The position numbers and the translations under genes were made by a program. 64,000 nucleotides of DNA from a virus. The stretch is from positions 16 to 64,015 of IMG/VR virus record IMGVR_UViG_2889676293_000002; one strand, given 5' to 3'. Below are positions 32,469 to 48,758 of this stretch, piece by piece. Each line of letters begins with the position of its first letter. Position 1 is the first letter of the stretch. The notes under the pieces were generated by a model, which made no database searches, was not told where the DNA came from, and saw only the letters and a list, made by a program, of their open reading frames with translations.

Positions 32469-35400
32469 CTACGAAAACTGGAGGCGGTTTGCGTGAATGG
32501 TTGATTTTGACTGTTGATCTATCAATGCCGTTGAAAATCCTGCACTGTCTAGTGTGAGACTTAGAAGGCTCTTTGTTTCAATTGCCTGCCGCAGCGCCTG
32601 CAACTCGCTGATCACGTCACCGCCCGCCATAGCTGAGCCAGACGCAACAGGCAAATTCATACGGACTGGCATCAACGTCGGTGTTGATACACGTGGCAGC
32701 ATCAGACGGCTCACCAGTTCGCTGTTTGACATTGGCCCGATCATCCGGTTTTGCTCAACGGTCAACACACGTTCCCCTTTGCTGAGCATAGCGGGCACCG
32801 TATCGACACCGTCCGGCCGATTGGGATCATCGACGTATTCGGTACCGGTGGCGAATGGGTTAGCCATGCCTTGTAATGCTCTGACCTGATCTTCAATCGC
32901 GATAATGGCGTTTTCTAAATCGTTGTTTTTGAATAGGCCACGCGAAGCCCTCATCTTTGCTGTTTCCGTCAACATCTGCACAATAAGCAATTGTCGTTCG
33001 GCATCGAATTCGCGCCGCTTTAACTCACGAACAGAATCATTGTAGCCGATTTCAGCCGCCTTTTTCTGCTCAAGGATTTCCCGTTGTGTGTTAGCTAACT
33101 GGTTTTGCAGATCGGTGATTTTTCGGTTAAGCTCCTTTTGGGCATCTTCGAGCTTTTGGTCAGTAATCTTTTGGAGTGTGACCAATGCGTCTTTTACCTC
33201 TTGTTCCCGTTGCGCTTGAATAGCCCGTTGCGTTTCCTTCCAAGCATCAAATTCATCTTGCGATTTCCTCAACTCGGCTTTGTGGTCGGCTTCCAGTTTC
33301 TCAAGTTGGCGGGTTTCCTGCTCCTTAAGCAACTCGGCGTTGTCCTTCTCTTCCTTTTGAAGTTGCTTCGTTGCCAGCGATACACCTTTGGTCTTATCGA
33401 GTTTAGCCGCCTCAACCTCTTCATGTAGGGCTAATAATTGCCGTTCGTATTCTGCCGTAACCAATGCCCGTTCTTTCTCATCGGTCAACGTGGCTAATAT
33501 CCGGTCACGCGTTGCTGTGATGCGTTGCGTTTCCGATACTTCATAGCGGGCTAACGCTTCGTTACGCACACGATCAAGAATGGCAACCTCTTCTATGGCA
33601 TCAGCAATACTTTGTGCATTGAGTTTCGCCGATAGGTCATAAGTTGATTGAATCTGTTCACGTTGTGCCTCATATCGAGCGTTTGAGGCTTCTGTTTCAG
33701 CGTCGAATAACTCCTGATTAAGCTTTAGTTCATCAGCAAACCACGCTTTGATTTCATCCATCTCAGCGTTGAGTGCATCCCTACGGGCATCACGTTCCTT
33801 TTCGATCAGCGATTTTTTAGCGTCATAAGCATCTTTGGCCGCGTCTGTTTCGTCAGATAGTGTCTGTTTGGCCTTGTCGAGAATAGCGTCTAATGAGGCA
33901 ATCTTGGCATCGAACTCGTCTTTTAACTGCCGTTTACGTACCTCAATAGCCGCTAACTCTTGTTGTTGCTGACGAAGTGCTTGGTTAGCCTGGGCTTGAA
34001 TAATTGCCTCAATGCCTTTCTTAACATCGTCGGTCATTGCCGCCGCCGCCGCGCTCATATCCTGATAATAGCCCAACTGAGCATCGATACCATCACGCAT
34101 TTTTTGCATTTCGGTTTGCTCTCTGTAGTATTCTCGGATTTTGGCCAGCTTCTCGTTAATGGTGCCCGTAAACGAAGACATATCAGATTCATAGGAATCT
34201 TGAGCAGCCTGCTTATACCAGTCAAAGAAGTTTTTGTACGACTCCCTTATCCTGCCCATGCCATTTGCTATGGCTTCATACTGGGCTTTTACCGATGCGT
34301 TATAGGCATCAGCAATAGCAGATAGTACCTGATAAGCCATTCCCGCAAAGCCTACAACAGACTCGAATGACATAGCACTAACCTTTGACACTTCGGCCCC
34401 TGCGTTGCTGACATTGGCTTGCAGGTCAGCTAACTGACGAATACCTTTTGCTGATGTTTTGTCGCCTATTGCCTCAAATACGCTTAGGTTTGTCTGTGCC
34501 TGACTAAGTGCGTTTTGTGCCGATTCGAGCGACTTTCCGGAAAGCAGGTCTATGTTTTCCCAAACCATCTTCACGCCCCTCGCAAACATCCCACCTATGC
34601 CAGACGCTTGCGTGCCAATCTCCAGCAGCATTGATAGCGATTGCTTGTAAGATGCGTGTTCATCGGCTGTCGCTTGCTTAAATACCTGAGCCGACTCTTT
34701 ACGCGACTGTATGGCATCCTTCTCGGCATCTATCCGGTCTTTGGCGTTCTGCTTCCAGAGGTCAACCTCAACACTTGACTGGGCCGATATTGTAGAAATT
34801 GCCGTTAGTTCGGTATTGACAAATTCGCCCAATGCCGCCGAACGTACCTTGTAAGCGTCAAATGCCGCTTGGTCGCGTTTAGCCTGTGCCGCTACTTCAA
34901 TTGCTTGAATTTTTTCAGCCGCATCTTTTTCCAGTGCAACAAGTTGCGCACTAGTAATTTTCTTACTGACAACCCGCTTATTGACTGCTTCAATATCAAC
35001 TTTTTCCTGAGCGTCGATTGCTGCTATCTGTTGCTTAAGCGTATCCTCATAGCCCTTTTTTAGAATCAAGTCAATTTCAGCCGCCGATAACAACGTAACT
35101 GTTTTGACGCTTTCCGCTTTAGCCTTTACGATCTTAGGTATTTCAACGGCTTGCTTTTCCTCAATTGATTTGACGTTATCGGCGTGTCGTTTCTCTTCCG
35201 CTAGTAACTCCGCTTTATTTCCTTTTGCGGCTTCTACGGCCCCTTTATGGCGAGCCTCTTCAACTTCGGTAAGGGTCGTATTCCGGTCTTTGGTTGACGC
35301 AACCATAGCCAGATTTGTTGACTGCATTACCGTACCTACCTCCTTGATACCAGTTACAACTTCTTCCAGTGTAGTCGTAAAGCCGCCGGTTCCCTTGAAG

Positions 35401-37148
35401 CTTACAAGGTTTTTAAAGAACTCACCCGGCGCTGCATCCCACATTTGATCTGCCGCCTCTTTATTAGACTTGAGCAGTTCTAACAGTTTAGCCGAATCGC
35501 CTTTTACTTTGGCGTACACATCAGCCGACAGTGTACTTTGCGCCAAACTCATCAGCTTATCTTCCTGAGCAAAAAGGTCCTGAAGTTGATTATTTGCCTT
35601 GTCAGTTTGGTACGCCAGACGTGCTAATTCAATACGACGTTCGTAGCTGACATTGACCTTATCCAGAATTCCTTTTAGTGTGGCGTTGTTGGTTGTTTCG
35701 GCATCCAGTCCGGCGAAGTAATCAGGGTACCTACTAATCAATAGTGACAAAAGGTCTTTACGCCGTTCGTTACCATCGTTGAGATTGAGAACTTGGTTTG
35801 CCAGTAGGTTAACGTTGGCCTGTTCGATTTGAAGCTTTTCGCCCGTATCGTCCATATTGTCGTTGACCTGGGTAGTTATAGCGTCATAGCCTTGCCACGC
35901 TGCAACCAGTAGCGATACCCCGGTAAGTAAAGCCCCAATCGGGTTAGCCGCCATTACTGCCCATAGCCCGCGAAGTGTAACGGTACTAGCCCCCGCCGCC
36001 GCGGTAGCTTCTACATTGGTCAGTGTAAGTATGCGTTGCGATAAGGTCATGTCATTAGCCCGACCTGCCGCAATCAATGCTTGAGCATTGTAGAGGGATA
36101 AGGCTAATCTACCCGCTACCCAAGCTGCGGTAGCTGAGGTAATGGTTGAGATAGTCCGTGAGATTGCCGAATTGGACCCCGCTACAACCTCGATAAAGTC
36201 AGCCGTTAGCCCGATCCCCTTTGCTATTCCATTTTCCAGATAGTCGCCAATTCGCGCCTTAGCTAGAAAAAAGGTATCAGAGAGGTTCGATATTTGCCCG
36301 CCTAGAGTTTTGCTCTGTAGGGCCATTAATTGGTAATATTTACCCCCAGCCTCGGACGAATCAAGCAACGCCTTTCGTACCATATCGAAACTGATTTGGT
36401 GTGCATCGGCCATTTTCTGAACCTCATCACGCGTTTTGCCGTAGGCATCAGCAATAAGCGATATAAGCGGAATTCCTGCCTCATTGAATTGCCTTAATTC
36501 AGTGAGCATAAGCCGCCCGTTGGTCGCTACCTGACCATATGCCAATGTTAGCTGAGGTAACTTTTCCTTGCCAACCGCCGCCGCCATATTGCCCAAAGCG
36601 GTCATGGTCGGTATTAGGTCGGCAGTAGCAATGTTGTAGGCTTTTAGCTTTACAACACCTTCGGCAACCTCGTCTATGGTGAATGGGGTCGATTTGGCGA
36701 GGCGAATTACATCATCCATCAACTCCATTGACTGCCGCTTACTGCCCAGCATCACATCAAGACTGATCTTTAGGCTATCTATCTTGGTTTTAGCGTCAAT
36801 AATGTCAGATGCAAACGAATTTATTTCGTTGAGCGTAAAGGCCGCAACCAGCATTTTCTGAAAGGAATTGACCCGATCTTCTAGCCCCTTAAATTCATTA
36901 GTAGCTTGCTGTGTATTCTTCGTTGTTTCTGACCCTGCTTTTTTGAGGGAGGTCGTTTGTTCGTCAATGGCTGAATTGACGTTTTTAATCGCCGTGGCTT
37001 GGAGTAGATGCCCGCGAAGGTTAGCGTCGGATGCTGCTGCCGCCTGTTGTTGACTTAACTTGGTAAGCCGAATTATTTCTTCTAGTTGCTCGCTGATAGT
37101 GCTGAGGTTACTCACCGCCTGGACAACTACCCTGATAGGTTCTGACAC
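32469..37148 (-). CDS. Tape measure protein (full length)
   Basis: 1559 aa; tape-measure domain LAKSTPFTIDEVAEG...LTLAYGQVATNGRLMLTELRQFNEAGIP; long coiled coil; C-terminal DTVPAMLSKGERVLT. Confidence 0.92.
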   Translation of the reverse strand: MSEPIRVVVQAVSNLSTISEQLEEIIRLTKLSQQQAAAASDANLRGHLLQATAIKNVNSAIDEQTTSLKKAGSETTKNTQQATNEFKGLEDRVNSFQKMLVAAFTLNEINSFASDIIDAKTKIDSLKISLDVMLGSKRQSMELMDDVIRLAKSTPFTIDEVAEGVVKLKAYNIATADLIPTMTALGNMAAAVGKEKLPQLTLAYGQVATNGRLMLTELRQFNEAGIPLISLIADAYGKTRDEVQKMADAHQISFDMVRKALLDSSEAGGKYYQLMALQSKTLGGQISNLSDTFFLAKARIGDYLENGIAKGIGLTADFIEVVAGSNSAISRTISTITSATAAWVAGRLALSLYNAQALIAAGRANDMTLSQRILTLTNVEATAAAGASTVTLRGLWAVMAANPIGALLTGVSLLVAAWQGYDAITTQVNDNMDDTGEKLQIEQANVNLLANQVLNLNDGNERRKDLLSLLISRYPDYFAGLDAETTNNATLKGILDKVNVSYERRIELARLAYQTDKANNQLQDLFAQEDKLMSLAQSTLSADVYAKVKGDSAKLLELLKSNKEAADQMWDAAPGEFFKNLVSFKGTGGFTTTLEEVVTGIKEVGTVMQSTNLAMVASTKDRNTTLTEVEEARHKGAVEAAKGNKAELLAEEKRHADNVKSIEEKQAVEIPKIVKAKAESVKTVTLLSAAEIDLILKKGYEDTLKQQIAAIDAQEKVDIEAVNKRVVSKKITSAQLVALEKDAAEKIQAIEVAAQAKRDQAAFDAYKVRSAALGEFVNTELTAISTISAQSSVEVDLWKQNAKDRIDAEKDAIQSRKESAQVFKQATADEHASYKQSLSMLLEIGTQASGIGGMFARGVKMVWENIDLLSGKSLESAQNALSQAQTNLSVFEAIGDKTSAKGIRQLADLQANVSNAGAEVSKVSAMSFESVVGFAGMAYQVLSAIADAYNASVKAQYEAIANGMGRIRESYKNFFDWYKQAAQDSYESDMSSFTGTINEKLAKIREYYREQTEMQKMRDGIDAQLGYYQDMSAAAAAMTDDVKKGIEAIIQAQANQALRQQQQELAAIEVRKRQLKDEFDAKIASLDAILDKAKQTLSDETDAAKDAYDAKKSLIEKERDARRDALNAEMDEIKAWFADELKLNQELFDAETEASNARYEAQREQIQSTYDLSAKLNAQSIADAIEEVAILDRVRNEALARYEVSETQRITATRDRILATLTDEKERALVTAEYERQLLALHEEVEAAKLDKTKGVSLATKQLQKEEKDNAELLKEQETRQLEKLEADHKAELRKSQDEFDAWKETQRAIQAQREQEVKDALVTLQKITDQKLEDAQKELNRKITDLQNQLANTQREILEQKKAAEIGYNDSVRELKRREFDAERQLLIVQMLTETAKMRASRGLFKNNDLENAIIAIEDQVRALQGMANPFATGTEYVDDPNRPDGVDTVPAMLSKGERVLTVEQNRMIGPMSNSELVSRLMLPRVSTPTLMPVRMNLPVASGSAMAGGDVISELQALRQAIETKSLLSLTLDSAGFSTALIDQQSKSTIHANRLQFS

Positions 37149-37274
37149 GTTTTTCTATAGTTCCACGCTTTAGGTTTGGTCTGTTACCTATGTGGCAACG
37201 CTAACCCGGTACACGATTTGCCAGTGCGGGGAGCAACGGCCAGTAAGTGAATGGTGATTAGCTGTAAAAATACA

Positions 37275-37331
37275 TTGACAAGTATTTATTGTAATGCTAA
37301 ATAATCGATAATTATAGTAAATATCTGTCAA
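37275..37331. promoter_or_regulatory. Inverted pair of the operator-like motif upstream of TMP
   Basis: TTGACAAGTATTTA 37275-37288 and TAAATATCTGTCAA 37318-37331. Confidence 0.65.
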
Positions 37332-37343
37332 TGTCTAGGCCAT

Positions 37344-37375
37344 AAAAAAGCCGCCCGATTGCTCAGGCGGCTTTT
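37344..37375 (-). terminator. Terminator after the toxin gene
   Basis: On the minus strand GCCGCCTGA-GCAA-TCGGGCGGC followed by TTTTTT. Confidence 0.75.
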
Positions 37376-37392
37376 CCGTTAATGTCTAAATG

Positions 37393-37848
37393 TTATACTG
37401 TAATCTCTAACTCTTCCGAAGGGTCGATTTTAGCTAGCTTCTTATCCAGATCATGCTCAATCAACGCCCCACTCTCATGCTCCTCTACGTACTCTTCGAG
37501 TAACATCTCCTTACCACCTTCGACTAAGTTGTCACTTCGCTGCGACCCCGCTTTCGGATAAACATCTAAAAATGTAATTTCCTGCCGTTCTTTATTGATA
37601 AACGAAATCACCCGGAAACCACCACTCTTATTCTTACCGTTACTCTTACAGGGAAACCTCACCTTGATTACCAAACTGTTACTTCCAAAGGTTTCCAAAA
37701 TAGAATTATTGGATACAATCAAGTCTTCAATGTTCTTCCCCACAAGTTCACCACATATATCAGAAGGGCAAGAGCTATATCCATCTTTGGGGCGTTTGCA
37801 AAGGCGCTTCAAAGATGCCCGAAATCTGGAGGTGGAAAAGGCGCGCAA
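37393..37848 (-). CDS. RelE/HigB-like toxin
   Basis: FRASLKRL...VIKVR...NKSGGFRVISF...ITFLDVYPK. Confidence 0.75.
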   Translation of the reverse strand: MRAFSTSRFRASLKRLCKRPKDGYSSCPSDICGELVGKNIEDLIVSNNSILETFGSNSLVIKVRFPCKSNGKNKSGGFRVISFINKERQEITFLDVYPKAGSQRSDNLVEGGKEMLLEEYVEEHESGALIEHDLDKKLAKIDPSEELEITV

Positions 37849-37850
37849 CC

Positions 37851-38297
37851 TTACAAACGGCTAAGGATTGAACGTAGTTTTTCGTTGCTCTTGGCGGCAA
37901 CATGGGCTGTCTCAATATCCTGTATTGCCTCCTTCAAATGGTCAATCTCCATCTTATAGGTATTGATTGCGCTTTGAATAGCCTCAGCAAATGAGGTACG
38001 CTGGAATTTAGCAACGCTTTTATCGCAATCATTATGAAATTCTTTTAGCCTGGGCAGAAGGGCTAATAATTCTTCAACGGCAGCCTTAGATGTGCCAAGG
38101 GCGATACCGTTAGAAATATCAATAATATCCTCAACAATGGTATTGATCCCATTGATGATTATATCCAAAACGGCCTTAAAGGCAAGAGCGCGATCGAGGT
38201 GGTCATCAGACCACCGCTCAAGTGTAACAACATCCTCAGAGGTAGATTGTGTATACACGGCCACCTCATTGATTTTAGCATCAGAAACTGCGAGCAT
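37851..38297 (-). CDS. Putative antitoxin (helical, family not recognised)
   Basis: Stop lies 2 bp before the toxin start; acidic helical protein. Confidence 0.55.
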   Translation of the reverse strand: MLAVSDAKINEVAVYTQSTSEDVVTLERWSDDHLDRALAFKAVLDIIINGINTIVEDIIDISNGIALGTSKAAVEELLALLPRLKEFHNDCDKSVAKFQRTSFAEAIQSAINTYKMEIDHLKEAIQDIETAHVAAKSNEKLRSILSRL

Positions 38298-38376
38298 GAT
38301 AGGGGTGCCTATATTTTTTAAATAATAGTAATACGATAACGAATACCTGAATAGGTAATTGTCGTTTGTTGTCGCT

Positions 38377-38814
38377 CTACTTGACTAGGCTAGCGCAACG
38401 TTCACGTAACGCTTGCTTATCGACCTGTATTTGCTTATAAATAGGACTATTCAAAGCCGAGGTCGCTATTGTGCGCTTAGTGGTTTTCATAGCTGTGTCC
38501 GTAGTTGTGCGACTTGTTGTGTGGGCTACAGAATGGCTTACTGAACGGTTTACAGAATGAATAACTGTATGACCTACTTCATGACTTTCTGTACGCTTCC
38601 CGTACAATAGTACAAAATTAGTACCACTAATGTTCATACTGCTAATTCTGGTGCTACTAATTTTAGAACTACTAATATTCGTACTGCTAGTTCTAGTACT
38701 ACCAATTCCAGTGCCACTAATCCTAACACTGCTAACTCTAATGCTGCCAGAGGTAAATACGGTTATTCTAGAACTGATAGTTTCGGAAAGGCTACAGTTC
38801 AGCAGGCTTATCAC
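38377..38814 (-). CDS. Low-complexity Ser/Thr/Ile repeat protein (doubtful)
   Basis: 145 open codons; pentapeptide SS(T/V/M)(R/N)I then tetrapeptide H(S/T)V repeats. Confidence 0.35.
   Translation of the reverse strand: MISLLNCSLSETISSRITVFTSGSIRVSSVRISGTGIGSTRTSSTNISSSKISSTRISSMNISGTNFVLLYGKRTESHEVGHTVIHSVNRSVSHSVAHTTSRTTTDTAMKTTKRTIATSALNSPIYKQIQVDKQALRERCASLVK
38522..38745. repeat. Degenerate 12-bp and 15-bp tandem repeats
   Basis: Six 12-mers at 38522-38593 (e.g. TGGCTTACTGAA) and eight 15-mers at 38626-38745 (e.g. ACTAATATTCGTACT). Confidence 0.8.
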
Positions 38815-38870: not shown

Positions 38871-38890
38871 CTTTAGATTAAGTAGACAGC

Positions 38891-39559
38891 CTAAAAATCG
38901 TTATTGATAGCCATTGCCGACTTGAGCGAATTGAAAAGCGACTGAGCCGTTGAGTTGATAGCCACAACAACAGAGCGACTTGATTCAAGTATACGCTTAT
39001 TGGTCGCTATACCCTGTTCAAGTTCCTTCTTTTCGGACTTCTTGGTTGTTTGTTCCAGCTTCTCTTCTTGATTCTTGATATTAGCCATTATCCTGTTTTC
39101 GGCAGACAGTGTTTTGTCATCTACCATAATGTAATAAGTCTCGACCGCCCCCTTCATGCCTTGTTCTATATCTGTCATAATAACCCTATAGCGGTCATCT
39201 TTACAGTCTATCGTTATGACATATTTCAACTTTGAGAAGATACTAGCAGCATCGTTGATGTCTGAAAAACCTTTGATAACAAGTCGCCCAGCCTCTTTAT
39301 CTTCAAATTGTATAACGCTCTTATAGTCACCGAAGGACTTTGTGACCCAGGTTTGTGCGTTTTTGAAAAGGCTAGCCTTGTTGTTTTTGACTTGTATGAC
39401 TTGCTGGTATGATACACGCCCAGTAGTTGAGTCGATAGGTAGGCCCACTGATTGACCAAGCGCACAGGCACCCGTAAGCAGAAGAAAGGGAAGAGCAGCG
39501 ACAAGCAATCTTATTGCAATGGCATTTGTGGTTGCTGAGGCGATAGACAGTCTTTTCAT
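38891..39559 (-). CDS. DUF4468-domain exported protein
   Basis: Signal region; LPID..TGRVSYQQVIQV...LFKNAQTWV...KSVIQFEDKEAGRLVIKG...TIDCKDDRYRV. Confidence 0.8.
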   Translation of the reverse strand: MKRLSIASATTNAIAIRLLVAALPFLLLTGACALGQSVGLPIDSTTGRVSYQQVIQVKNNKASLFKNAQTWVTKSFGDYKSVIQFEDKEAGRLVIKGFSDINDAASIFSKLKYVITIDCKDDRYRVIMTDIEQGMKGAVETYYIMVDDKTLSAENRIMANIKNQEEKLEQTTKKSEKKELEQGIATNKRILESSRSVVVAINSTAQSLFNSLKSAMAINNDF

Positions 39560-39633
39560 TGGTTATACTTTAAAATAGTAATGTTTATTATATTAAACAG
39601 TTAATGGTAACTTGCGTAGGCAAATCACAAAAC

Positions 39634-39855
39634 ATGAATACTCCAAAGGAAATAGGCGACTACATCAAGCAGTTGCGAAAGTTGAAAAAAATGACGCAAG
39701 CTGAGGTTGCGCTTCAATTAGGCGTAAAAACAACCACTTACACGCATTTTGAAACAGGTCGAACTAATATGACGCTATCAACTCTGAACAAGATAGCTGA
39801 GGTATTAGGGTATGAACTACAGGTGTCATTTAGCCTTAAAAAGCCAGTTGAATAA
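39634..39855 (+). CDS. XRE-family HTH regulator
   Basis: IGDYIKQLRK.KKMTQAEVA..LGV....THFETGRTN.TLSTL.KIAEVLG. Confidence 0.9.
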   Translation: MNTPKEIGDYIKQLRKLKKMTQAEVALQLGVKTTTYTHFETGRTNMTLSTLNKIAEVLGYELQVSFSLKKPVE

Positions 39856-39894
39856 AAATAATTAGTTTTAATCAATCTTTTTTGCGTCTAAATA

Positions 39895-39924
39895 TTGATT
39901 ATAATAAACTATTAGCTATATTTG
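39895..39924 (+). promoter_or_regulatory. Bacteroidota-type promoter for the antirepressor operon
   Basis: TTG 39895-39897, 19-bp spacer, TATATTTG 39917-39924. Confidence 0.5.
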
Positions 39925-40088
39925 TACATACCAATTAGCCAACGGCAAAAGCGACACAGTACCTACGGGTTGCCTCGCAAAGTAGTCTACTAGCCAACTG
40001 GTATAAAAAGAAAACCCCTAACGCTGCGAGACCGGGAAGTTACTCAGCAATTAGGGGCCGTTTGTTTCACTCAAACCTTGCGGTTCTC

Positions 40089-41326: not shown

Positions 41327-41386
41327 TTCTGATTCATCAACTACCCGACCTAAGCAATTAGGTCGGGCCTTAGTCATAGCCAGCAA

Positions 41387-41743
41387 ATGAACAACACCGA
41401 AGCAAATAGCGAATTGGTAGCGGTTGAACCTGCTTTGCCTATTCCACTCGACAAAGGCCCAAGCCTTATGATTCGGCTAATAAACGGCTCAATGGCCCCT
41501 AAGTTTCCGGCCAATTCTTACGCCTTGTGCATACCTCTAACTGGTAAGCAGCAAATGAAACGGGGGAGTTCTTACGTCTACCATTCCCGGCAAGGGTATT
41601 TCGTCAAAGTGTTTGAGGGCTTTGCTGATAATGCAATCTGTTTGCGGTCAATGAACCCGACTTGTAGCCCTGTTGAGACAATACCTATAGCTGACGTAAC
41701 GGGTATCTATTCGGTAGAATGGAAGATTAACAAAGCAGCCTAA
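41387..41743 (+). CDS. Stand-alone S24-like peptidase domain
   Basis: INGSMAPKF...GYFVKVF...LRSMNP; no HTH. Confidence 0.6.
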   Translation: MNNTEANSELVAVEPALPIPLDKGPSLMIRLINGSMAPKFPANSYALCIPLTGKQQMKRGSSYVYHSRQGYFVKVFEGFADNAICLRSMNPTCSPVETIPIADVTGIYSVEWKINKAA

Positions 41744-41799
41744 ACTACCTGTCTATCAATCCGGCCTGAGCAATTGGGCCGGACTTTCACAGCACCACA

Positions 41800-42705
41800 A
41801 TGCAGACCAATAAACCCAAAAGGCGATGCCTTACTATTCAGGAAAGGGAATTGATTGTTGAGGCTTACGGTAGTGGGGTATCTTCTGCCGTTCTAAGTAA
41901 GCAATACGCAGTAAGCGACAGGTGTATATGCCACGCCGTTAAACGGGCCTACGCCCCAATTAGGTATCAAAAAATAACCTCCGATCAGGAAAAAACAAAT
42001 GCTGTCAGGGCTTATGCTGAGGGGAAGTCTATGGCCGTAATAAGAAAAGAGTTCAGAATAAGCGAAAAGCTACTTCTTCGATTGCTCAAGGAATCCAACA
42101 CGCCGATACGTGGAGCTAAAAACCAAATACAAGAACACAAGGATAAGGCTGTTGAATTATACGAGTCTGGATTGACGATCAATGAAGTGGCTGACCAACT
42201 AGGGGTTAACGCTCATAATGTGTACTACTTCTTACGGGGTAAGGGTATAACTAGAAATCCTGCCACTGTCAATAAACTAACGTGGAACAAGTCTCATGTT
42301 AATGTTAATCGACGCGCCAAATTAAGGCTCCTTAACTCCCGCCAAAAAGGCAATGCTAATGCAAGTTGGAAGGGAGGCATAACCCCACTGGTCAAGGTAA
42401 TCAGGGGATCCGAAAAATCTAAACAATGGCGCAATGCCATTTTTGCGCGTGACAATTATACCTGTCAATCGTGCGGGCGTAGTTCGTCAGAACTAAAAAG
42501 CGGCTCACTACAAGCTGACCATATCTACCCGTTTTCTGCGATAATCAAGGAACACAAGATTGAAACCATTGAGCAAGCTGAGGAATGTAAACAGCTTTGG
42601 AATACCGACAATGGCCGCACGCTTTGCATACCCTGCCATAAGCAAACACCTACTTACGGATTCAAGGCTACCCGCTACCATAAACGCCATTCATCGCATG
42701 AATAA
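41800..42705 (+). CDS. HTH-repeat plus HNH endonuclease
   Basis: NASWKGG...WRNAIFARDNYTCQSCG...ADHIYP...NGRTLCIPCH. Confidence 0.85.
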   Translation: MQTNKPKRRCLTIQERELIVEAYGSGVSSAVLSKQYAVSDRCICHAVKRAYAPIRYQKITSDQEKTNAVRAYAEGKSMAVIRKEFRISEKLLLRLLKESNTPIRGAKNQIQEHKDKAVELYESGLTINEVADQLGVNAHNVYYFLRGKGITRNPATVNKLTWNKSHVNVNRRAKLRLLNSRQKGNANASWKGGITPLVKVIRGSEKSKQWRNAIFARDNYTCQSCGRSSSELKSGSLQADHIYPFSAIIKEHKIETIEQAEECKQLWNTDNGRTLCIPCHKQTPTYGFKATRYHKRHSSHE

Positions 42706-43222
42706 GCTACCAGCTACCACCAAATGGCACGTTGCCGACTCCTATCAAAGCGGCGAATCTGTGCAGGAAATAGCGGCTAGGCTGGCTATCTCAGAAGAAT
42801 TGGTACGTAGTGCCGTAGCGGTCAAAAGAAAGCCTGTCAAGCCACAAAAAGGGGCTACACATGATCCGGGTTCAGTACTTCGTGTAACGCTTGTTACCTA
42901 CGACCCCGACTTGCAAAAAGCACTATTACAAAAGATACGAACAACGCCCCTTTATGGCGACTGGCGTAAGGCTGTGTTACGGCGCGACAAGTACCGATGT
43001 TGCGAGTGTGGTAATACGAAGAAAGTGCAGGTAGACCATATCTACCCCTTAAGTGCCATTATTCACAACTACCGACTCTACAGCCTTGAGGATGCGGCAG
43101 AGTGCGAATTAATCTGGCGAGTCAGTAACGGGCGAACGCTTTGCGTTACCTGTCACCAGCGCACCGATACACACGGAGCTAAGGCAAAGCGGCTATGGAT
43201 GAGGCCCGATGAGGTTGATTAA
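42698..43222 (+). CDS. HNH endonuclease
   Basis: ATG 42698; WRKAVLRRDKYRCCECG...VDHIYP...NGRTLCVTCH. Confidence 0.85.
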   Translation: MNKLPATTKWHVADSYQSGESVQEIAARLAISEELVRSAVAVKRKPVKPQKGATHDPGSVLRVTLVTYDPDLQKALLQKIRTTPLYGDWRKAVLRRDKYRCCECGNTKKVQVDHIYPLSAIIHNYRLYSLEDAAECELIWRVSNGRTLCVTCHQRTDTHGAKAKRLWMRPDEVD

Positions 43223-43260
43223 AACAAACAGCCCCTCGTTAAGAGGGGCTGTTTGTTTTA
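43220..43260. terminator. Bidirectional terminator
   Basis: Perfect 18-bp inverted repeat TAAAACAAACAGCCCCTC-GTTAA-GAGGGGCTGTTTGTTTTA between convergent genes. Confidence 0.85.
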
Positions 43261-43272
43261 ATCTCCATAGCA

Positions 43273-43536
43273 TTAAAGAACTCTAACGTTTGTAGGTCTC
43301 GCATCGGGCTGAGTATCATCTATAATAGAAAATACCTCTGTTGTGGCTTGAGTTGTATCTTGAATTGCTTTTCGGATCTCCTTGTAAGGCGTATCCGTAG
43401 TGATATGACTATTTTCTCCACCCCCTGTGCACCTTATGATACAGCCTGCTGTAAGTGCCTTGACGTTTATAATCTGGCTAACATTAACCAGATATTTGGT
43501 CTGTCCGCGGCCCATCAATTCTAAGAATCTTGCCAT
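43273..43536 (-). CDS. Small hypothetical protein
   Basis: ATG 43536 MARFLEL...KYLVNVSQIINV...I.TDTPYKEIRKAI. Confidence 0.55.
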   Translation of the reverse strand: MARFLELMGRGQTKYLVNVSQIINVKALTAGCIIRCTGGGENSHITTDTPYKEIRKAIQDTTQATTEVFSIIDDTQPDARPTNVRVL

Positions 43537-43704
43537 TACATTAAAGGTGTTTAGATTTCTGTAATCAGAGCGAGTTCTCTGACTTACAATCAAATTAAAC
43601 TGATTGGTGCGGCAACGCAAGAATAATTGACATAAGCGCATATTACTCAACGACCTTAAAAGGTAATGCAATAGAATTATAGATTACCTCCAATACGTAG
43701 CGAG

Positions 43705-43768
43705 AACACCCCTATACCCCATTTTTAACCAGTTTTCCTCTGTGCAGTCCGGTAATAAACGTACCATT
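43705..43768 (+). repeat. ~64-bp dispersed element, copy B
   Basis: 53/64 identical and gap-free versus 47033-47096. Confidence 0.85.
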
Positions 43769-43806
43769 GCGTCTTAAACGTAATAAGTCACTATTCCCGT
43801 AACAAA

Positions 43807-44136
43807 ATGGAAACTATAAACCTGGCACCTAGCCAAGATGTATTGCTGCGCTTTATGCTTTATCCCTCCTCACCCGCTACAGAGGTTATACAGCTAGGTC
43901 TCGATCAATGGATTGATTCGCAAGATGGATTTGGTGGTAAATATGAATATGGAACCAGGCACCGATTAGTCGATAAAGGGCAATCCAACACCGAAGAAGA
44001 ATACATAGTAGCTGCGCCGCCATATATTCGCAGAGTGCCACATCCAACGAAAGAGGGTAAGATATTAATAACACTGCTTGTATGTGTCGTTGAGGTCGAT
44101 CGTTGGACCCAGTTTGCGGCAAAGCCGACGTATTGA
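43807..44136 (+). CDS. Hypothetical protein
   Basis: Starts ~40 bp after element B. Confidence 0.55.
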   Translation: METINLAPSQDVLLRFMLYPSSPATEVIQLGLDQWIDSQDGFGGKYEYGTRHRLVDKGQSNTEEEYIVAAPPYIRRVPHPTKEGKILITLLVCVVEVDRWTQFAAKPTY

Positions 44137-44274
44137 CTATGTGAATCAAAGGTGAGCCCCCTCCCTTTTTTTAAGTCCGGTTTATACTTCGTTACGACTC
44201 GCTCAATTTACCGCACATGGTAAACTTTGATGTGACTTACTCCAACATACCTTTAATACAGTACCTAGTTATTT

Positions 44275-45204
44275 ATGCAGTTATTGAGCCAAATCATAAA
44301 CGAACTTATGGATTCCAGTCGAGATCTGACTGGACCTATGTTGAAAACTAAATTCTTAGCCCACAAAATAGGTAACAGTGAGCTACTGGAATGGGTCAAC
44401 AAAGAGCTAAATGGCTATAAAAATGCGGATGATTTACCGGATTATAGAAACGTTCGAGTCACCACTACGATGAGTTTTGTTGTTGGAGACATTAAATGGA
44501 GTGGTCAACCAATTCCAACGGCAGGGATGTCAGATGCAGCCAAACGCTTATTAAGTGAAGGCTACTTTTTGGAGTCAGTTGCTACGCTTTCTACCTTTTC
44601 CTCAAATGATGCAGATGATAGGTTAGCATTTAACATACCTGCCGAATTGGTGAGGTACGTAGAGATTCATATTAAGGAGCTGGGCCATAATCCCTATTTC
44701 AATATTGTAAGCATTCGAAAAGAAGCTTCCTTTAGTGCAGCGGTGCAAACCTTAGCTGTTATAAGGAGTCGCCTTCTTGATTTTATGCTTGAGATTGAAG
44801 AGGAACTGGGCAGCGAAACAACTATCGAATCATTACGTGCTGCAAATAGACAAATTACCACGATCATGTATAATACAATCACCAATACCGGCGATGGAAA
44901 CGTTATTAACTCAGGCGATCAGGCTCAGGTGAACGCAAGTATATCTATTAATCGAGGTGACATTCAGGGCCTTGTTAATAAGTTGACGGAGTTAAAGGTT
45001 AGCGAGCCAGACCAGGCAGAACTGATTTCAGCCCTTGCGATAGAAACAACCGATCCCGATACTAACTTATTTGGGCCTAGGGTTAATGAATGGATAACTC
45101 GAATGCTTGGCAAGGCGTTAAACGGAAGTTGGCAAATTGGAGCAGGAGCCGCAGGAGGCGTGTTAACTGAACTTGTGAAGGCTTACTACGGAATAGGCAA
45201 GTGA
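44275..45204 (+). CDS. AbiTii-domain protein
   Basis: MLKTKFLAHKIGNSELLEWVNKELNGY...LPDYR; C-terminal FGPRVNEWI..ML.KA..GSWQIG.GAAGGVLT. Confidence 0.8.
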   Translation: MQLLSQIINELMDSSRDLTGPMLKTKFLAHKIGNSELLEWVNKELNGYKNADDLPDYRNVRVTTTMSFVVGDIKWSGQPIPTAGMSDAAKRLLSEGYFLESVATLSTFSSNDADDRLAFNIPAELVRYVEIHIKELGHNPYFNIVSIRKEASFSAAVQTLAVIRSRLLDFMLEIEEELGSETTIESLRAANRQITTIMYNTITNTGDGNVINSGDQAQVNASISINRGDIQGLVNKLTELKVSEPDQAELISALAIETTDPDTNLFGPRVNEWITRMLGKALNGSWQIGAGAAGGVLTELVKAYYGIGK

Positions 45205-45266
45205 ACAACTTTCTAGATGAACTTAATATTGACAACTAACTTTATTTCCTTCAAACCTTTGCAACA

Positions 45267-45449
45267 ATGGATGAAAAGAAAAAATTTACACCTGGCATGG
45301 TCGTAGAACTCATGTCAGGTAGTCCCAAAATGACCGTCTTAAGGTATAATGGCGATGGCTTAATCTGCGAATGGTACAGCGAGACAAAGGCAGAATTTCA
45401 GTGGCACGAATTTAAAGAAGTAATGCTTATTGAGGTGGGTCGAGATTAA
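45267..45449 (+). CDS. YodC/DUF2158-like small protein
   Basis: KFTPGMVVELMSGSPKMTV...ICEWY...F.E..L. Confidence 0.75.
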   Translation: MDEKKKFTPGMVVELMSGSPKMTVLRYNGDGLICEWYSETKAEFQWHEFKEVMLIEVGRD

Positions 45450-45812
45450 GATCATGGAATAGACGGCCGTTCTTGCATTCATGATGATTGCAATTTAGTC
45501 TAACTGCAAGCTACAAAAAGAGCCCGGTCACTGTGACTGGGCTCGAATATTTTAGTAGTTAATTATCGGGGATAATACCGACCTATTGTTAATCTAAAAA
45601 TCTAAAGGAGAACATACAGGTAAGCTAATTTAGGCTTTAACAATCCAAAGATATGTACGCCAAGCTCGCTACTTCGGCAAGTTTCAAATAAAATCAATTC
45701 CTGACACAAGCCATTTTTCTGTTTTTTTTATAAAGACAGATAATTTGCGGTAAGCTATTAATAGCTATACAAATTTTCAACAAAAAATATGCTCAATTAA
45801 ACAAGAGACGTC

Positions 45813-46850
45813 ATGAACCAGTTGCCAGATAACAATTCACCAGAAAAAGCACTCTTTGAACTTCGCTTTAGCTCGACTATTCCCCTAAGCAAGAAGACAA
45901 TCGTTAGCTATTTTGAAAATACAGACTTTAACCCATCTGATTTAGGTATCGAAAACTTAACCTCTGCACAGATACTATATCAAGAACAAACAGCTGAAGA
46001 TGAAATTGGACGCCCACGAACAGATAAATATTTAATACTGAACGTTAGTTTTGAAGAATTCATCAGAAAAAACAAAACTAAATATGAAGAAATCAATAAA
46101 GCAGCTATCGACCAAATAAATTTTGGCCACAATGGTGATTTCTATCTGAAGTATTTTCAGCCTTATGTAGCCAAGTTCCACCATTTGCGCTGGCACCTAA
46201 TACAATATCTTATATGGAGATACGGGTTGATTGAGGGTGATAACATATGGAAGAATATGGGAAACTCTTGTAAATGGAGTATCGATTCAAAAGAAGGGAG
46301 TAACCCACTTACGAATATATATATGTTAGGTGAAGTTACTTTTACTGTAAACATACCAGAGATAGAGCTTAAAACAGATGATTTTTCAGACTTTACTGTA
46401 TCATATAAAAGAAGTGGGAATGGAATTCCACTGCATAGGGAAATATTAGTTGAAGCAGAGTTCTTAAAGAACAAGAGTAGATTTAGAAGTGCCTTGTTAA
46501 TGATTTACACTGCGTTAGAGGTAGGTACCAAAAGTTTATTAACTTATAAAAATCCAGACGCTACATGGCTCGTTGAACATACGTCTACACCTGATATTGT
46601 TAAAATACATAAAGAATATTTGCCCGCTATTATTGAAGACCCATTGACAAGTGAAGAATTAGATTTGTTGAGAAAATTAACATCTCAAAGGAATATAATT
46701 GCTCACTCAGGGAGGGTATCTGATAAATTAGATATTGACAAGTATTTTTCTTTCGCTGAAAAGGCTCTTTACAAGATTGAGTCTAATATGGATTATAAAT
46801 GGGCAAAAGATGTGTATTCCCCGAGTAAGAATTTCCCTATAGGGGGATAA
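45813..46850 (+). CDS. HEPN-domain protein
   Basis: RSALLMIYTALEVGTK...LRKLTSQRNIIAHSG (RxxxxH); AT-rich. Confidence 0.75.
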   Translation: MNQLPDNNSPEKALFELRFSSTIPLSKKTIVSYFENTDFNPSDLGIENLTSAQILYQEQTAEDEIGRPRTDKYLILNVSFEEFIRKNKTKYEEINKAAIDQINFGHNGDFYLKYFQPYVAKFHHLRWHLIQYLIWRYGLIEGDNIWKNMGNSCKWSIDSKEGSNPLTNIYMLGEVTFTVNIPEIELKTDDFSDFTVSYKRSGNGIPLHREILVEAEFLKNKSRFRSALLMIYTALEVGTKSLLTYKNPDATWLVEHTSTPDIVKIHKEYLPAIIEDPLTSEELDLLRKLTSQRNIIAHSGRVSDKLDIDKYFSFAEKALYKIESNMDYKWAKDVYSPSKNFPIGG

Positions 46851-47032
46851 GCTTGCATGTTGGCGTAGGGCTTCACTGTCAGTCTGAGAGAGCTTTGTGA
46901 GGCGAAGGAGTTCGAGAGGTTATTCTTATAAGATATTGAGATTTCGCCTAAACGATTTACACGCAGTTCGTCCCGTAACAGTCTCTCAAATTCCCTCTTA
47001 ATGTATATAATTACTTGCAATTCGCTAAGTCA

Positions 47033-47096
47033 AACACCCCCAAACCCCATTTTTTACTCATTTCCCCCTGTGCAATCCAGTGATAAACGTACCATT
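47033..47096 (+). repeat. ~64-bp dispersed element, copy C
   Basis: Direct repeat of 43705-43768. Confidence 0.85.
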
Positions 47097-47184
47097 ATAG
47101 CTCCTAATAGCCGTTCTTACGTCGTATCTTAGGGTAGCTTTCGTAAATTAGTTAATAATCACAAATTTAATAAAAGTAGACATT

Positions 47185-48231
47185 ATGAGCTTCGTCATGC
47201 TTGAATCTCCAGATAGAAATAAGCTACATAAGTATCTTCAAAACAGCAATAAGCCCCTAGAAGGCAGAATACCTTTTGCGAGTTTATTACTTGCGGAGCA
47301 ATACCTGTCCAAAAAAAACAAAACTATTAAGCAATGGAAAGAAGATAAGGTTCCAGCAGTAGTGAACTGGGAAAATAAAATTGAAAAACGTACTGTAACC
47401 TCGAAAGGAATTAATTACGTAATTATCTTAAATCACATTAAGAAGTACGGATATTTTAATCCGAAACAATTTGATTTATACTCTATAAGGGAAGATTTTT
47501 TAGACTTAAAGACTGAAGTAGGAGTAGCTTTACACACTAAAGATAAACGGACAAGTATAGAATTGTGGAATTCTTCTAATTATTTAGGAGAGAACTTCCC
47601 TATTACGCCTAATTTGGGTCGAGAGGGTATAATAATTAGTTGTTTTTTAGATCAATTATTACACAGAGTAGCTAAAAATAGAGAATTAATTGTATTGAAT
47701 TCGAATGATGTATTCTCAATTGATTGGCTTTTTTCGTTTAAGGACTTGATTAATGACGTAATATCAACATTAGAAATTTTTTTGCATTTGATTTATAATA
47801 AAGCTCAGTTCGATCCGCTTAATGGCTGGGTATTTGACAAAGATATACTTGGATCGAGTCACGGGAGAAGATTAACGGATAAGTTAAAATGGATCTATCA
47901 AATCTCTGGAAAACATCTTGGCATTGAAAGTTATAAGAATTCGTTACTATTTGTAAAAGAACTGAGAAACCATTTAAATCATTTTGATCCACCAGTGTTT
48001 TGCATAGCTATAGAAGAGATTGCAGATGTGCTTAATTACATTGTAGATATTGGCATGATTCATATTGAGATCAGAAAAGTACTAAATTTAAAAATATCAA
48101 GTACTTTGATTAATTTCATTTTACAACCTCAAATAGTCTTCGTTCCTGAGAAAATGTTTAGTCATAGAAAACCTCTGGATTATAATTCGGAGGGGTATAA
48201 TTCATGTAGGTGGCCAAAAGGTGTAGATTAA
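47185..48231 (+). CDS. HEPN-like protein
   Basis: LINDVISTLEIFLH...VKELRNHLNHFD (RxxxxH); very AT-rich. Confidence 0.65.
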   Translation: MSFVMLESPDRNKLHKYLQNSNKPLEGRIPFASLLLAEQYLSKKNKTIKQWKEDKVPAVVNWENKIEKRTVTSKGINYVIILNHIKKYGYFNPKQFDLYSIREDFLDLKTEVGVALHTKDKRTSIELWNSSNYLGENFPITPNLGREGIIISCFLDQLLHRVAKNRELIVLNSNDVFSIDWLFSFKDLINDVISTLEIFLHLIYNKAQFDPLNGWVFDKDILGSSHGRRLTDKLKWIYQISGKHLGIESYKNSLLFVKELRNHLNHFDPPVFCIAIEEIADVLNYIVDIGMIHIEIRKVLNLKISSTLINFILQPQIVFVPEKMFSHRKPLDYNSEGYNSCRWPKGVD

Positions 48232-48758
48232 TTAATGCAATGTAGCTGATTAACTCTGCTGCGCCAGTCTCGTGTGACAAGGACTACTCGACTATATAAT
48301 GTCTTAGCCAGCTTGACCATGTCGGCCATGAGCTCCATTGACTGGCGCTTACTGCCCAGCATCACGTCGAGCGAAATTTTCAGACTGTCGAGCTTGGTCT
48401 TTGCGTCGAGTACGTCGGTCGCAAACGACTTGAATTCTGACAGCGTGAAGGCCGCAATCAGCAGCTTTTGAAAGTTGCTGACTCTGCTTTCGAGATCCTT
48501 AAAATCGTTGCCCGTCTGCTGGGTGGTCTGCGAAGCGGTGGCTGCTGACTTTTTGAGCGAGGCGGTCTGCTCATCGATGGCATCGGTTACCTGACGAGAA
48601 GCCGCCACGACACGGATCATGCCGCGTTGCTGCTCATCGGCAAAAGTCGCCGCCTGCTGTTGGGCTTGTTTAGTGAGCTTGATGAGCTCAGCCACTTGAT
48701 CGTTAAGTGTTGGCAGGTCACTGACCGCCTGGACAACAACGCGAATAGGTTCGGACAC
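48228..48758 (-). pseudogene. Truncated tape-measure N-terminal fragment
   Basis: 95 of the first 152 aa identical (no gaps) to TMP at 37148; homology stops at ~48300, then 23 unrelated codons to a stop. Confidence 0.9.

What the first reader, a model, noticed from the sequence alone, without database searches (positions are those of the whole stretch)
32469..48758. Tape-measure gene start is duplicated around an 11-kb defence-rich island that supplies a replacement TMP
Right after the tail chaperone, TMP begins (GTG 48758), breaks at codon 153 (~48300) and stops 23 foreign codons later. About 11 kb further on, a second GTG-started TMP (37148) repeats the N-terminus (95/152 aa identical, no gaps; shared DSLKISLDVMLGSKRQSMELM) and runs 1559 aa. 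The sequences upstream of the two starts are also loosely similar. The long copy looks AT-richer over most of its length and returns to late-gene composition only near its C-terminus (~32.5-32.9 kb). The inference is that a ~15-kb block from a related phage (cargo plus most of a TMP) replaced the middle of the native gene and restored it as a chimera. Cargo would then be hard to lose without losing the tail. The island has no integrase. The orphan 176-aa product could also affect tail assembly.
Basis: partly seen in the sequence, partly recalled or inferred. Interest (0 to 1): 0.8.

Follow-up and report, generated by a model that had tools for sequence, protein, structure and literature searches.

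The report
Tape-measure gene swapped, stub left behind
In a Fibrella prophage, a foreign tail tape-measure gene arrived together with an 11-kb block of accessory genes and replaced the resident gene, leaving its first 153 codons as a dead stub; this is a clear recombination scar at a recurrent insertion hot spot, not a new kind of system.

Summary
A 176-aa ORF (48228-48758, minus strand) repeats the first 153 residues of the 1559-aa tape-measure protein (TMP, 32469-37148) at 62% identity without gaps. About 11.1 kb of low-GC cargo lies between them.

The copies are old xenologues, not a fresh duplication: third codon positions are only 38% identical. The stub has backbone composition (GC3 0.67). 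The long TMP (GC3 0.48) and the island (0.29-0.55) do not.

The closest backbone relative, a Fibrella sp. ES10-3-2-2 prophage, has its TMP directly after the same upstream gene. Other relatives carry antirepressor-like and HNH genes between that gene and an intact TMP, so this is an insertion hot spot (over 400 bp inserted in 13 of 22 prophages).

Fibrella forsythiae shows the mirror image in an unrelated phage: full TMP, 18-kb island, then a C-terminal TMP stub.

The best reading is one homologous and one illegitimate crossover with a related phage.

- The "chimeric C-terminus" is unresolved.
- "Defence-rich" is overstated, since only AbiTii is solid.
- "Cargo cannot be lost" is overstated.

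No reads were available. The scan had no comparable earlier finding on other DNA.

The parts
48885..49574 (-). Conserved 229-aa gene immediately upstream of the TMP. It is a tail assembly chaperone by position only.
   Evidence: Syntenic homologues precede the TMP in L030 (56%), G002, L032 and L033. No Pfam or PHROG hit. The AlphaFold model has pLDDT 64 and was not searched further. GC3 is 0.67.
48300..48758 (-). Stub of the native TMP gene: GTG start plus codons 1-153.
   Evidence: 62% aa identity to the long TMP residues 1-153. GC3 is 0.667, like the backbone. Spacing to the upstream gene is 126 bp, against 108 bp in L030. The break lies inside the Pfam TMP_3 domain, and the stub gives no TMP_3 hit.
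48228..48299 (-). 23 unrelated codons plus the stop that close the stub ORF. This is the 3' flank of the convergent 348-aa island gene.
   Evidence: Homology to the long copy ends at 48300/48301. GC3 is 0.35.
43700..48231 (+). AT-rich right part of the island. It holds a 109-aa ORF (43807-44136), AbiTii (44275-45204), DUF2158 (45267-45449), a 345-aa ORF with a weak HEPN match (45813-46850) and a 348-aa unknown (47185-48231).
   Evidence: AbiTii: Pfam 4.9e-38, PADLOC 1.8e-37. HEPN_RiboL-PSP scores E 0.0019, below the cutoff. GC is 31-43%.
38891..43671 (.). Regulatory and HNH module, flanked by an inverted pair of the 64-bp element. Contents: DUF4468 (38891-39559, -), XRE HTH (39604-39855, +), 164-aa ORF (40062-40556), antirepressor-like gene (40556-41326), lone S24 domain (41387-41743), two HNH endonuclease genes (41800-42705 and 42560-43222) and a 132-aa ORF (43273-43671, -).
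   Evidence: Homologous modules lie next to TMP genes in G002, G008, L046, L040 and L053. The inverted repeat is 38808-38844 / 43722-43758.
37393..38814 (-). Three small co-oriented ORFs (145, 148 and 151 aa) just upstream of the long TMP.
   Evidence: ORF list. There is no significant Pfam or PADLOC family; one weak PHROG of unknown function matches.
37149..37392 (-). Leader of the long TMP: a terminator hairpin with a T-run, then TTGACA, then TATTTTTACA at -124, then the lineage-wide CCAAAC box.
   Evidence: G002 has the same layout upstream of its TMP, with TATTTTTACA at -126. A copy at about 75-80% identity lies on own-genome contig C4. Promoter function is inferred, not shown.
32469..37148 (-). 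Full-length tape-measure gene (1559 aa) of foreign composition. It is presumed to be the working TMP.
   Evidence: Pfam TMP_3 3.1e-28 at residues 116-299. It is a full-length member of a family of 1500-1900-aa TMPs from Spirosomataceae. GC3 is 0.48 against 0.66 for the backbone.
32398..32988 (.). Interval that holds the left compositional boundary of the foreign block.
   Evidence: Two-segment likelihood on third codon positions. The best point is 32487, with a 2-lnL interval of 32398-32988.
30612..32466 (-). Backbone genes downstream of the TMP: a 92-aa gene and a 529-aa tail-tip-region gene.
   Evidence: 59% and 77% aa identity to L030. GC3 is 0.63 and 0.66.

Best explanation
This is a scar of phage-phage recombination at a hot spot.

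The resident prophage is about 63 kb, belongs to a Fibrella-type backbone, and has an integrase, a CI-like repressor and candidate att repeats. It originally had its TMP gene directly after the 229-aa upstream gene, as its closest relative still has.

A related phage of lower GC carried the common alternative layout: upstream gene, then an accessory island (XRE, antirepressor-like, HNH, Abi-type cargo), then the TMP. It recombined with the resident.

One crossover was illegitimate. It joined codon 153 of the resident TMP (48300/48301) to the far end of the donor island. The other crossover lay at or within about 90 codons of the TMP stop (32.40-32.99 kb) and was probably homologous.

The result is a resident stub, then 11.1 kb of donor cargo, then a complete donor TMP with its own leader, then the resident tail-tip genes. 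The long gene is the working tape measure. The 176-aa ORF is a relic that may still be translated.

Shown: the duplication, the composition, the old divergence of the copies, the synteny in relatives, the hot spot, and an independent mirror-image case.

Inferred: the order of events, the nature of the junctions, the function of the long TMP, and the promoter in its leader.
For: Duplication and sharp break:
- 95/153 identical with no gaps, and homology ends at 48300.

The copies come from different lineages:
- 288/459 nt identical; third positions 38% identical; only 44 of 95 conserved residues use the same codon.

The stub is native:
- GC3 is 0.667.
- It is contiguous with a backbone that matches L030 (Fibrella sp. 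ES10-3-2-2): TerS 98%, TerL 89%, the 184-aa gene 89%, the 529-aa gene 77%, the 752-aa gene 78%.
- In L030 the TMP follows the upstream gene after 108 bp.
- The last 150 nt of the upstream gene are 85% identical to L030.

The long TMP and island are foreign:
- GC3 is 0.48 along the whole gene and 0.29-0.55 in the island.
- TMPs of relatives are not intrinsically low: L032 0.72, L033 0.66, L030 0.59.
- The long TMP is only 37% identical to L030's TMP, and its middle is closer to L032, L033 and G002.

The donor-type layout exists:
- G002 has an 8.6-kb island with homologous HNH (62%) and antirepressor-like genes between the upstream gene and an intact TMP.
- L046, L040 and L053 also carry these genes just upstream of the TMP.
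- The upstream-gene-to-TMP gap exceeds 400 bp in 13 of 22 prophages and is at least 2.8 kb in 5.
- The long TMP leader and G002's share the terminator/TTGACA/TATTTTTACA layout.

Independent mirror image in Fibrella forsythiae (G008), in an unrelated phage:
- A full 974-aa TMP (GC3 0.46), then an 18-kb low-GC island with the same module (antirepressor-like 72%, HNH 59%) plus Abi_alpha, then a 93-aa ORF that is 73% identical to the last 101 TMP residues.

No second phage of this type in the assembly:
- TMP matches twice and the 529-aa gene once.
Against: - No donor or near-identical relative was found in phage, viral, genome or metagenome collections. The donor layout is therefore inferred from relatives at 30-60% identity.
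- The island is heterogeneous in GC (31-50%). Its XRE-to-HNH module is inverted relative to G002, so more than one event is likely.
- L030 carries an antirepressor/HTH island after its TMP in the same relative orientation, which also fits a two-step history.
- G002's TMP is also lower in GC3 than its flanks (0.57 against 0.70-0.76). That weakens composition as a stand-alone argument.
- No reads or long reads were available for the junctions.
Confidence: 0.7

Rival explanations
1. The left crossover lies inside the TMP gene, so the working TMP is a chimera with a donor body and a native C-terminus that fits the resident tail tip.
For: GC3 rises to 0.62-0.68 in codons 1441-1520. Identity to L030's TMP peaks at 72% in residues 1481-1520, near backbone level. 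The 2-lnL interval for the boundary, 32398-32988, includes the last 170 codons or so.
Against: The best change point is codon 1553, at the gene end. The last 39 codons fall back to GC3 0.40 and 41% identity. All relatives conserve this C-terminal region (45-54%), so similarity there does not discriminate between the two readings.
Confidence: 0.35
2. Two-step accretion. An L030-like ancestor had the native TMP followed by an antirepressor/XRE island. A second TMP was then acquired downstream of that island. Later the native TMP was truncated when AT-rich cargo (AbiTii, the HEPN-like gene, the 348-aa gene) replaced codons 154 to the end.
For: In L030 the island lies after the TMP, with the antirepressor and a homologue of the 164-aa gene convergent on the TMP. 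The stub and the module have the same relative order and orientation here. The GC steps inside the island (31-36% against 42-50%) suggest separate arrivals.
Against: It needs an intermediate with two full TMP genes and two independent illegitimate events. The common layout in relatives (island directly upstream of the TMP, with the same HNH and antirepressor-like genes) explains the structure with fewer steps.
Confidence: 0.15
3. A site-specific integrative island inserted into the TMP gene and brought a replacement 5' end, in the way some islands restore the gene end they interrupt.
For: The direct repeats flank the island. A 20-nt exact run (33 nt with one mismatch) lies 30 nt before the break and could pass for an att core.
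Against: No integrase, recombinase or transposase family appears in the island. This model predicts native composition for long-TMP codons 144-1559, yet they have GC3 0.40-0.55 against 0.667 for the native stub. No other truncated N-terminal copy turned up among about 75 TMP N-termini in 400 family genomes, apart from two cut by contig ends.
Confidence: 0.05
4. Assembly artefact, or a recent in-place duplication.
For: None beyond the fact that the junctions were not checked with reads.
Against: The repeats share at most 20 identical bases, too few to mislead an assembler, and the break at 48300 lies in unique sequence. The assembly holds no leftover second phage. The window lies inside a 1.28-Mb contig. 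Saturated synonymous sites exclude a recent duplication.
Confidence: 0.03

Closest known systems
Mosaic joints from illegitimate recombination between phages (the Hendrix / Pedulla / Hatfull model of phage mosaicism; from my own knowledge)
   Same: There is a sharp novel joint inside a gene and a module of foreign composition. Function is kept because a complete replacement gene came along.
   Different: Here the scar survives as a 153-codon in-frame stub that keeps its start codon. The exchanged module is a TMP gene together with an adjacent 11-kb cargo island. A mirror-image case exists in a second phage of the same host genus.
Morons and accessory-gene hot spots in prophage late operons, for example the P2/P4 defence hot spots (from my own knowledge)
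   Same: Cargo of deviant composition, partly in the opposite orientation and with its own terminators, sits at a fixed position between conserved virion genes. It includes an abortive-infection gene.
   Different: The hot spot is the junction between the gene upstream of the TMP and the TMP itself, in prophages of Spirosomataceae. The recurrent cargo is an XRE / antirepressor-like / HNH module. In this phage the insertion cut into the TMP gene instead of falling between genes.
Free-standing HNH endonuclease genes interrupting virion operons beside the tape-measure gene in Cluster J mycobacteriophages (PMC3706429)
   Same: HNH genes unlinked to terminase or methylase lie next to the TMP gene inside the structural operon.
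   Different: Those are single-gene insertions downstream of an intact TMP. No gene-start duplication or large island is described in the passages I read.
Integrative islands that duplicate the end of the gene they insert into, such as tRNA or tmRNA gene targets (from my own knowledge)
   Same: Direct repeats of a gene end flank an island, and a complete gene copy is retained.
   Different: There is no integrase. The repeats are only 63% identical at the DNA level. The complete copy, not just its end, has foreign composition.

Membership tests
Phage tail tape-measure protein (Pfam PF20155 TMP_3) | TMP_3 domain above the Pfam gathering score | tested here: met
   Long copy: 99.3 bits against a cutoff of 41, E 3.1e-28, residues 116-299. 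The database's precomputed Pfam annotation of the same protein lists the same domain.
Phage tail tape-measure protein (Pfam PF20155 TMP_3) | The short 176-aa ORF holds a complete TMP domain | tested here: not met
   No TMP_3 hit even at E 0.1. The break at residue 153 leaves only about 38 of the 192 domain positions.
Phage tail tape-measure protein (Pfam PF20155 TMP_3) | Conserved position between the head-proximal tail genes and the tail-tip genes, and a length typical of relatives | tested here: met
   Gene order is collinear with L030, G002, L032 and L033. Relatives are 1500-1900 aa.
Phage tail tape-measure protein (Pfam PF20155 TMP_3) | Present in virions and sets tail length | not testable with these tools
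   This needs induction, electron microscopy and virion proteomics.
AbiTii abortive-infection protein (PF18864 / PADLOC PDLC02334) | Domain hit above the cutoff | tested here: met
   ORF 44275-45204: Pfam 131.7 bits against a cutoff of 27.6; PADLOC E 1.8e-37.
AbiTii abortive-infection protein (PF18864 / PADLOC PDLC02334) | Partner gene AbiTi and a phage-resistance phenotype | not tested
   The neighbouring ORFs have no PADLOC hit.
HNH (homing-type) endonuclease | HNH nuclease domain | tested here: inconclusive
   ORFs 41800-42705 and 42560-43222 match PHROG HNH families (6.6e-20 and 6.8e-11). Pfam HNH and HNH_2 stay below their gathering scores. Catalytic residues and cleavage were not examined.
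Site-specific integrative island | Integrase or recombinase gene inside the element | tested here: not met
   None of the island ORFs scanned hits an integrase, recombinase or transposase catalytic family. The prophage integrase lies at 1-1347, far from the island.
Site-specific integrative island | The gene part beyond the att core keeps native composition | tested here: not met
   Long-TMP codons 151-1559 have GC3 0.40-0.55 against 0.667 in the native stub.
Tail assembly chaperone (label given to 48885-49574) | Family or fold match, or a programmed frameshift pair | tested here: inconclusive
   No Pfam or PHROG hit. The model has pLDDT 64 and is too weak for a fold search. In L030 the 184-aa and 239-aa genes are separated by a 78-aa gene, so a G/GT-type frameshift pair is not evident. 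The label rests on position only.

The most novel reading that the evidence does not exclude
In prophages of Spirosomataceae, the tape-measure gene and the neighbouring XRE / antirepressor-like / HNH / Abi island travel together as one exchangeable cassette. Breaks made by the island's HNH endonucleases in or near resident TMP genes drive its copying into related phages. TMP stubs, an N-terminal one here and a C-terminal one in Fibrella forsythiae, would be the scars of imprecise repair. That would tie the spread of defence cargo to an essential virion gene.
Probability: 0.2. Interest if true: 0.65.

Novelty: new variant of a known kind. Interest (0 to 1): 0.42.

Why it matters
Illegitimate recombination followed by selection for function is the accepted origin of phage mosaicism, but surviving scars are seldom seen. 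This locus shows one: an essential virion gene replaced along with its neighbouring cargo.

It also defines an accessory-gene hot spot beside the tape-measure gene in prophages of Spirosomataceae. As far as I know this hot spot has not been described. It recurs across genera and carries a repeated antirepressor-like/HNH module and abortive-infection genes.

For annotation, the 176-aa ORF should be read as a TMP remnant. For experiments, the locus offers a natural test of whether a TMP from another phage lineage works with a resident tail tip, and of whether a leftover N-terminal fragment interferes with tail assembly.

Tried and rejected
- Read support. Only one public run shared words with the junction region. 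Laid on 31000-50900, it gave a 237-bp identical contig at 48846-49082 and two poor short pieces, none bridging a junction. This says nothing either way.
- Close relatives or a donor. Nothing was found by megablast against phages, by protein-seeded scans of viral contigs with two flanking genes, by scans of genome and metagenome contigs with the 184-aa gene, or by BLAST of the whole 15.9-kb block against 400 family genomes (best 70-77% over under 0.9 kb).
- Discordant best hits for the two N-termini. The stub, the long copy and L030's TMP are roughly equidistant (59-62% aa), so this test does not discriminate.
- Mapping the left junction by similarity to L030 in 40-residue windows. Not resolvable.
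- Other stubs in this TMP lineage. N-terminal and C-terminal profiles against 400 family genomes gave no second N-terminal stub away from contig ends. They gave one degraded C-terminal fragment (G282) and one apparent contig-end duplicate (G195).
- Rfam scan of the island and the TMP leader. Only sub-threshold chance-level matches.
- Sigma-70 promoter scan. The count is no higher than in shuffled sequence, and the model does not suit Bacteroidota.
- Structure of the 229-aa upstream gene. pLDDT 64, so no fold search was made.
- The 64-bp element and the TMP leader were not found in the G002, G008, L030, L032 or L033 loci.
- Literature. Two full-text searches found no description of a TMP gene-start duplication around an island.
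- Earlier notes of this scan held only TMP stubs in decayed satellites or stubs cut by an IS element.
Full report
**Observation**

The ORF map shows a 176-aa GTG-started ORF at 48228-48758 and a 1559-aa GTG-started ORF at 32469-37148, both on the minus strand. The two proteins match over residues 1-153 with 95 identities, 124 positives and no gaps (E 2e-62). At the DNA level the match ends after codon 153, at window 48300/48301. The short frame then runs through 23 unrelated codons to a stop, 4 nt into the end of a convergent 348-aa gene. The window's genome holds only these two copies.

Pfam places the TMP_3 domain at residues 116-299 of the long protein. The break therefore falls inside the domain, and the short ORF gives no TMP hit.

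**Context**

The window is a prophage inside a 1.28-Mb contig.
- The integrase is at 1-1347 and a CI-like HTH/S24 repressor at 1601-2665.
- Small and large terminase subunits are at 54896-55399 and 53560-54912.
- The virion genes form a long minus-strand block.
- A 15-bp exact direct repeat lies just outside the integrase and at the 3' end of parB (63142-63156). This suggests an element of about 63.2 kb.
- Named homologues of the TMP come from Fibrella, Spirosoma, Larkinella and allied genera.

**Composition**

GC3 of the flanking late genes is 0.61-0.71. The stub's 153 codons have 0.667. The long TMP has 0.48, never above 0.55 in any 150-codon window. The sixteen island ORFs have 0.29-0.55.

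TMP genes of relatives are not intrinsically low: 0.72 in L032, 0.66 in L033, 0.59 in L030 and 0.57 in G002.

A two-segment likelihood on third positions puts the left boundary of the low-GC3 block at codon 1553 (32487), with a 2-lnL interval of 32398-32988. The foreign block is thus 15.3-15.9 kb. Its right edge is sharp at 48300. Its left edge cannot be separated from the TMP stop codon.

**Age of the repeat**

The two copies share 288 of 459 coding bases. Identity is 69%, 81% and 38% at codon positions 1, 2 and 3. Only 44 of the 95 identical residues use the same codon. Synonymous sites are near saturation, so the copies come from two phage lineages and not from a recent duplication.

The longest exact run is 20 nt (33 nt with one mismatch), at the conserved motif in codons 132-143.

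**Relatives**

The closest backbone relative found is a prophage of Fibrella sp. ES10-3-2-2 (locus L030). Identities to it are:

| Gene | Identity to L030 |
|---|---|
| TerS | 98% |
| TerL | 89% |
| 184-aa gene | 89% |
| 529-aa gene | 77% |
| 752-aa gene | 78% |
| Gene upstream of the TMP | 56% |
| TMP stub | 60% |
| Long TMP | 37% |

The middle of the long TMP is closer to the TMPs of L032, L033 and G002 than to L030's. In L030 the TMP starts 108 bp after the upstream gene, as the stub does here (126 bp). The last 150 nt of the upstream gene are 85% identical between the two phages. L030 carries a small antirepressor/HTH island after its TMP.

A same-genus genome, G002, holds a collinear prophage at about 50% identity. 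There, 8.6 kb lie between the upstream gene and an intact 1697-aa TMP. That stretch holds homologues of the window's HNH genes (62%), its antirepressor-like gene and its 164-aa gene, all co-oriented with the late genes.

I fetched the region upstream of the TMP in 20 further family prophages. In 17 of them a homologue of the upstream gene was detected. Together with the loci already in hand (G002, L030, L032, L033 and the window), the gap between that gene and the TMP is:
- at most 200 bp in 9 prophages;
- 0.4-1.5 kb in 8 prophages;
- at least 2.8 kb in 5 of the 22 prophages.

Antirepressor-like and/or HNH homologues lie directly upstream of the TMP in at least three more of them (L046, L040, L053). 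The junction is therefore a recurrent insertion hot spot, and the layout expected of the donor (upstream gene, island, TMP) is common.

The leader of the long TMP and that of G002 share a terminator hairpin, then TTGACA, then TATTTTTACA at -124/-126. I read this as a candidate restart promoter; that is an inference.

A profile of TMP N-termini gave about 75 matches in 400 family genomes. Only the window's stub lies in a short ORF away from a contig end.

**An independent mirror image**

In Fibrella forsythiae (G008), a different phage carries the following in order:
- a 974-aa TMP (TMP_3 domain 1.3e-27, GC3 0.46);
- about 18 kb of low-GC cargo, with the same module (XRE 38%, the 164-aa homologue 33%, antirepressor-like gene 72%, HNH 59%) plus an Abi_alpha gene;
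- a 93-aa ORF that is 73% identical to the last 101 residues of that TMP and ends at the same residue.

Here a C-terminal stub of a displaced TMP survives downstream of an incoming TMP and island. This is the same process with the illegitimate joint on the other side.

**Interpretation**

The simplest history is recombination between an L030-like resident and a lower-GC relative with the island-before-TMP layout. One illegitimate joint fell at resident codon 153. The second, probably homologous, crossover fell at or near the TMP 3' end. I give this 0.7.

GC3 rises to 0.62-0.68 and identity to L030 peaks at 72% in codons 1441-1520. But the last 39 codons fall back, and the region is conserved in all relatives. 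I give it 0.35 as a sub-variant of the same history.

A two-step history is a real alternative (0.15), for three reasons:
- L030 has its island after the TMP in the same relative orientation.
- The island's GC is stepped.
- The XRE-to-HNH module is inverted relative to G002, and is flanked by a 37-nt inverted pair of an island-specific 64-bp element.

The remaining alternatives are unlikely.
- A site-specific island carrying a replacement 5' end would need an integrase and native composition beyond the core. Neither is found.
- Misassembly is unlikely because the repeats share at most 20 identical bases, the break lies in unique sequence, and no leftover second phage exists.

**Claims that do not hold as written**

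- "Defence-rich". AbiTii is the only solid defence-family hit. The HEPN match is below threshold. The three small ORFs next to the TMP have no significant Pfam or PADLOC family. The rest is regulatory (XRE, antirepressor-like, S24), two HNH genes, DUF4468, DUF2158 and unknowns.
- "Cargo hard to lose". Recombination between the direct repeats would delete the island in frame and leave a hybrid TMP. At 63% identity and a 20-nt identical run this would be rare, but the cargo is not locked in.
- "Tail chaperone". This is a positional label only.

**Limits**

No reads bridged the junctions. No donor or near-identical relative was found. Nothing here tests expression, virion content or tail length.

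**Verdict**

This is a real and well-delimited recombination scar at a recurrent hot spot. It is a new variant of known phage mosaicism and moron accretion, of moderate interest. The more novel idea, a TMP-linked cassette driven by HNH endonucleases, is not excluded but is unsupported beyond co-occurrence.

Noticed in passing
window 38803-38866 (reverse), 43705-43768, 47033-47096: There are three copies of a ~64-bp element (81-83% identical), each ahead of an island ORF. In the own genome they occur only inside this island. The inverted pair 38808-38844 / 43722-43758 brackets the XRE-to-HNH module, which is inverted relative to G002.
   Followed up: partly
window 37149-37400, and L036:9560-9860 (G000:C4, about 28560-28860): The noncoding leader of the long TMP (terminator, TTGACA, a conserved 50-nt stretch) has a copy at about 75-80% identity over about 190 nt on another contig of the same genome. 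No homologous genes lie around that copy, and there is no Rfam match.
   Followed up: partly
G008:C1:558000-617999 (L037, L035, L038); stub at G008:C1:576540-576821: Fibrella forsythiae carries a full 974-aa TMP, an 18-kb low-GC island with Abi_alpha and the same antirepressor-like/HNH module, then a 93-aa C-terminal TMP stub (73% over 101 aa). A weaker 30-residue fragment lies just after the TMP stop.
   Followed up: partly
L031:731-1234 (metagenome scaffold, 1257 bp): A 167-aa ORF is a truncated N-terminus of a TMP of this family. It ends about 11 codons beyond the window's break point, still inside the TMP_3 domain. The contig ends 23 nt later, so its context is unknown.
   Followed up: partly
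L034:3837-15396 (JGI metagenome contig): A 1657-aa TMP of this family (36% identical to the long TMP) sits right after an integrase, an HTH_17 gene, a Lin1244_N gene and a DnaB-type helicase, with no other tail genes nearby. It could be a satellite-like element or a heavily rearranged prophage.
   Followed up: no
window 10844-12690: A second low-GC patch (41-46% GC) lies at the far end of the minus-strand virion-gene block. It holds a GIY-YIG/NUMOD homing-type endonuclease (11668-12690) and an ORF with a weak HEPN match (10844-11518).
   Followed up: no
window 63142-63156, and G000:C1:1014705-1014719 (95-81 bp before the window start): A 15-bp exact direct repeat lies just outside the integrase gene and at the 3' end of parB. 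These are candidate attL/attR sites, giving a prophage of about 63.2 kb.
   Followed up: partly
G138:C37:225841-255500 (partly L059): A related prophage has about 5 kb between the upstream gene and its TMP, and about 10.8 kb between the TMP and the homologue of the 529-aa gene. Both flanks of its TMP carry large inserts.
   Followed up: no
G282:C23:176262-177555: A degraded C-terminal TMP fragment of this family lies in two short frames with an internal TGA, in a genome that is 80% complete.
   Followed up: no
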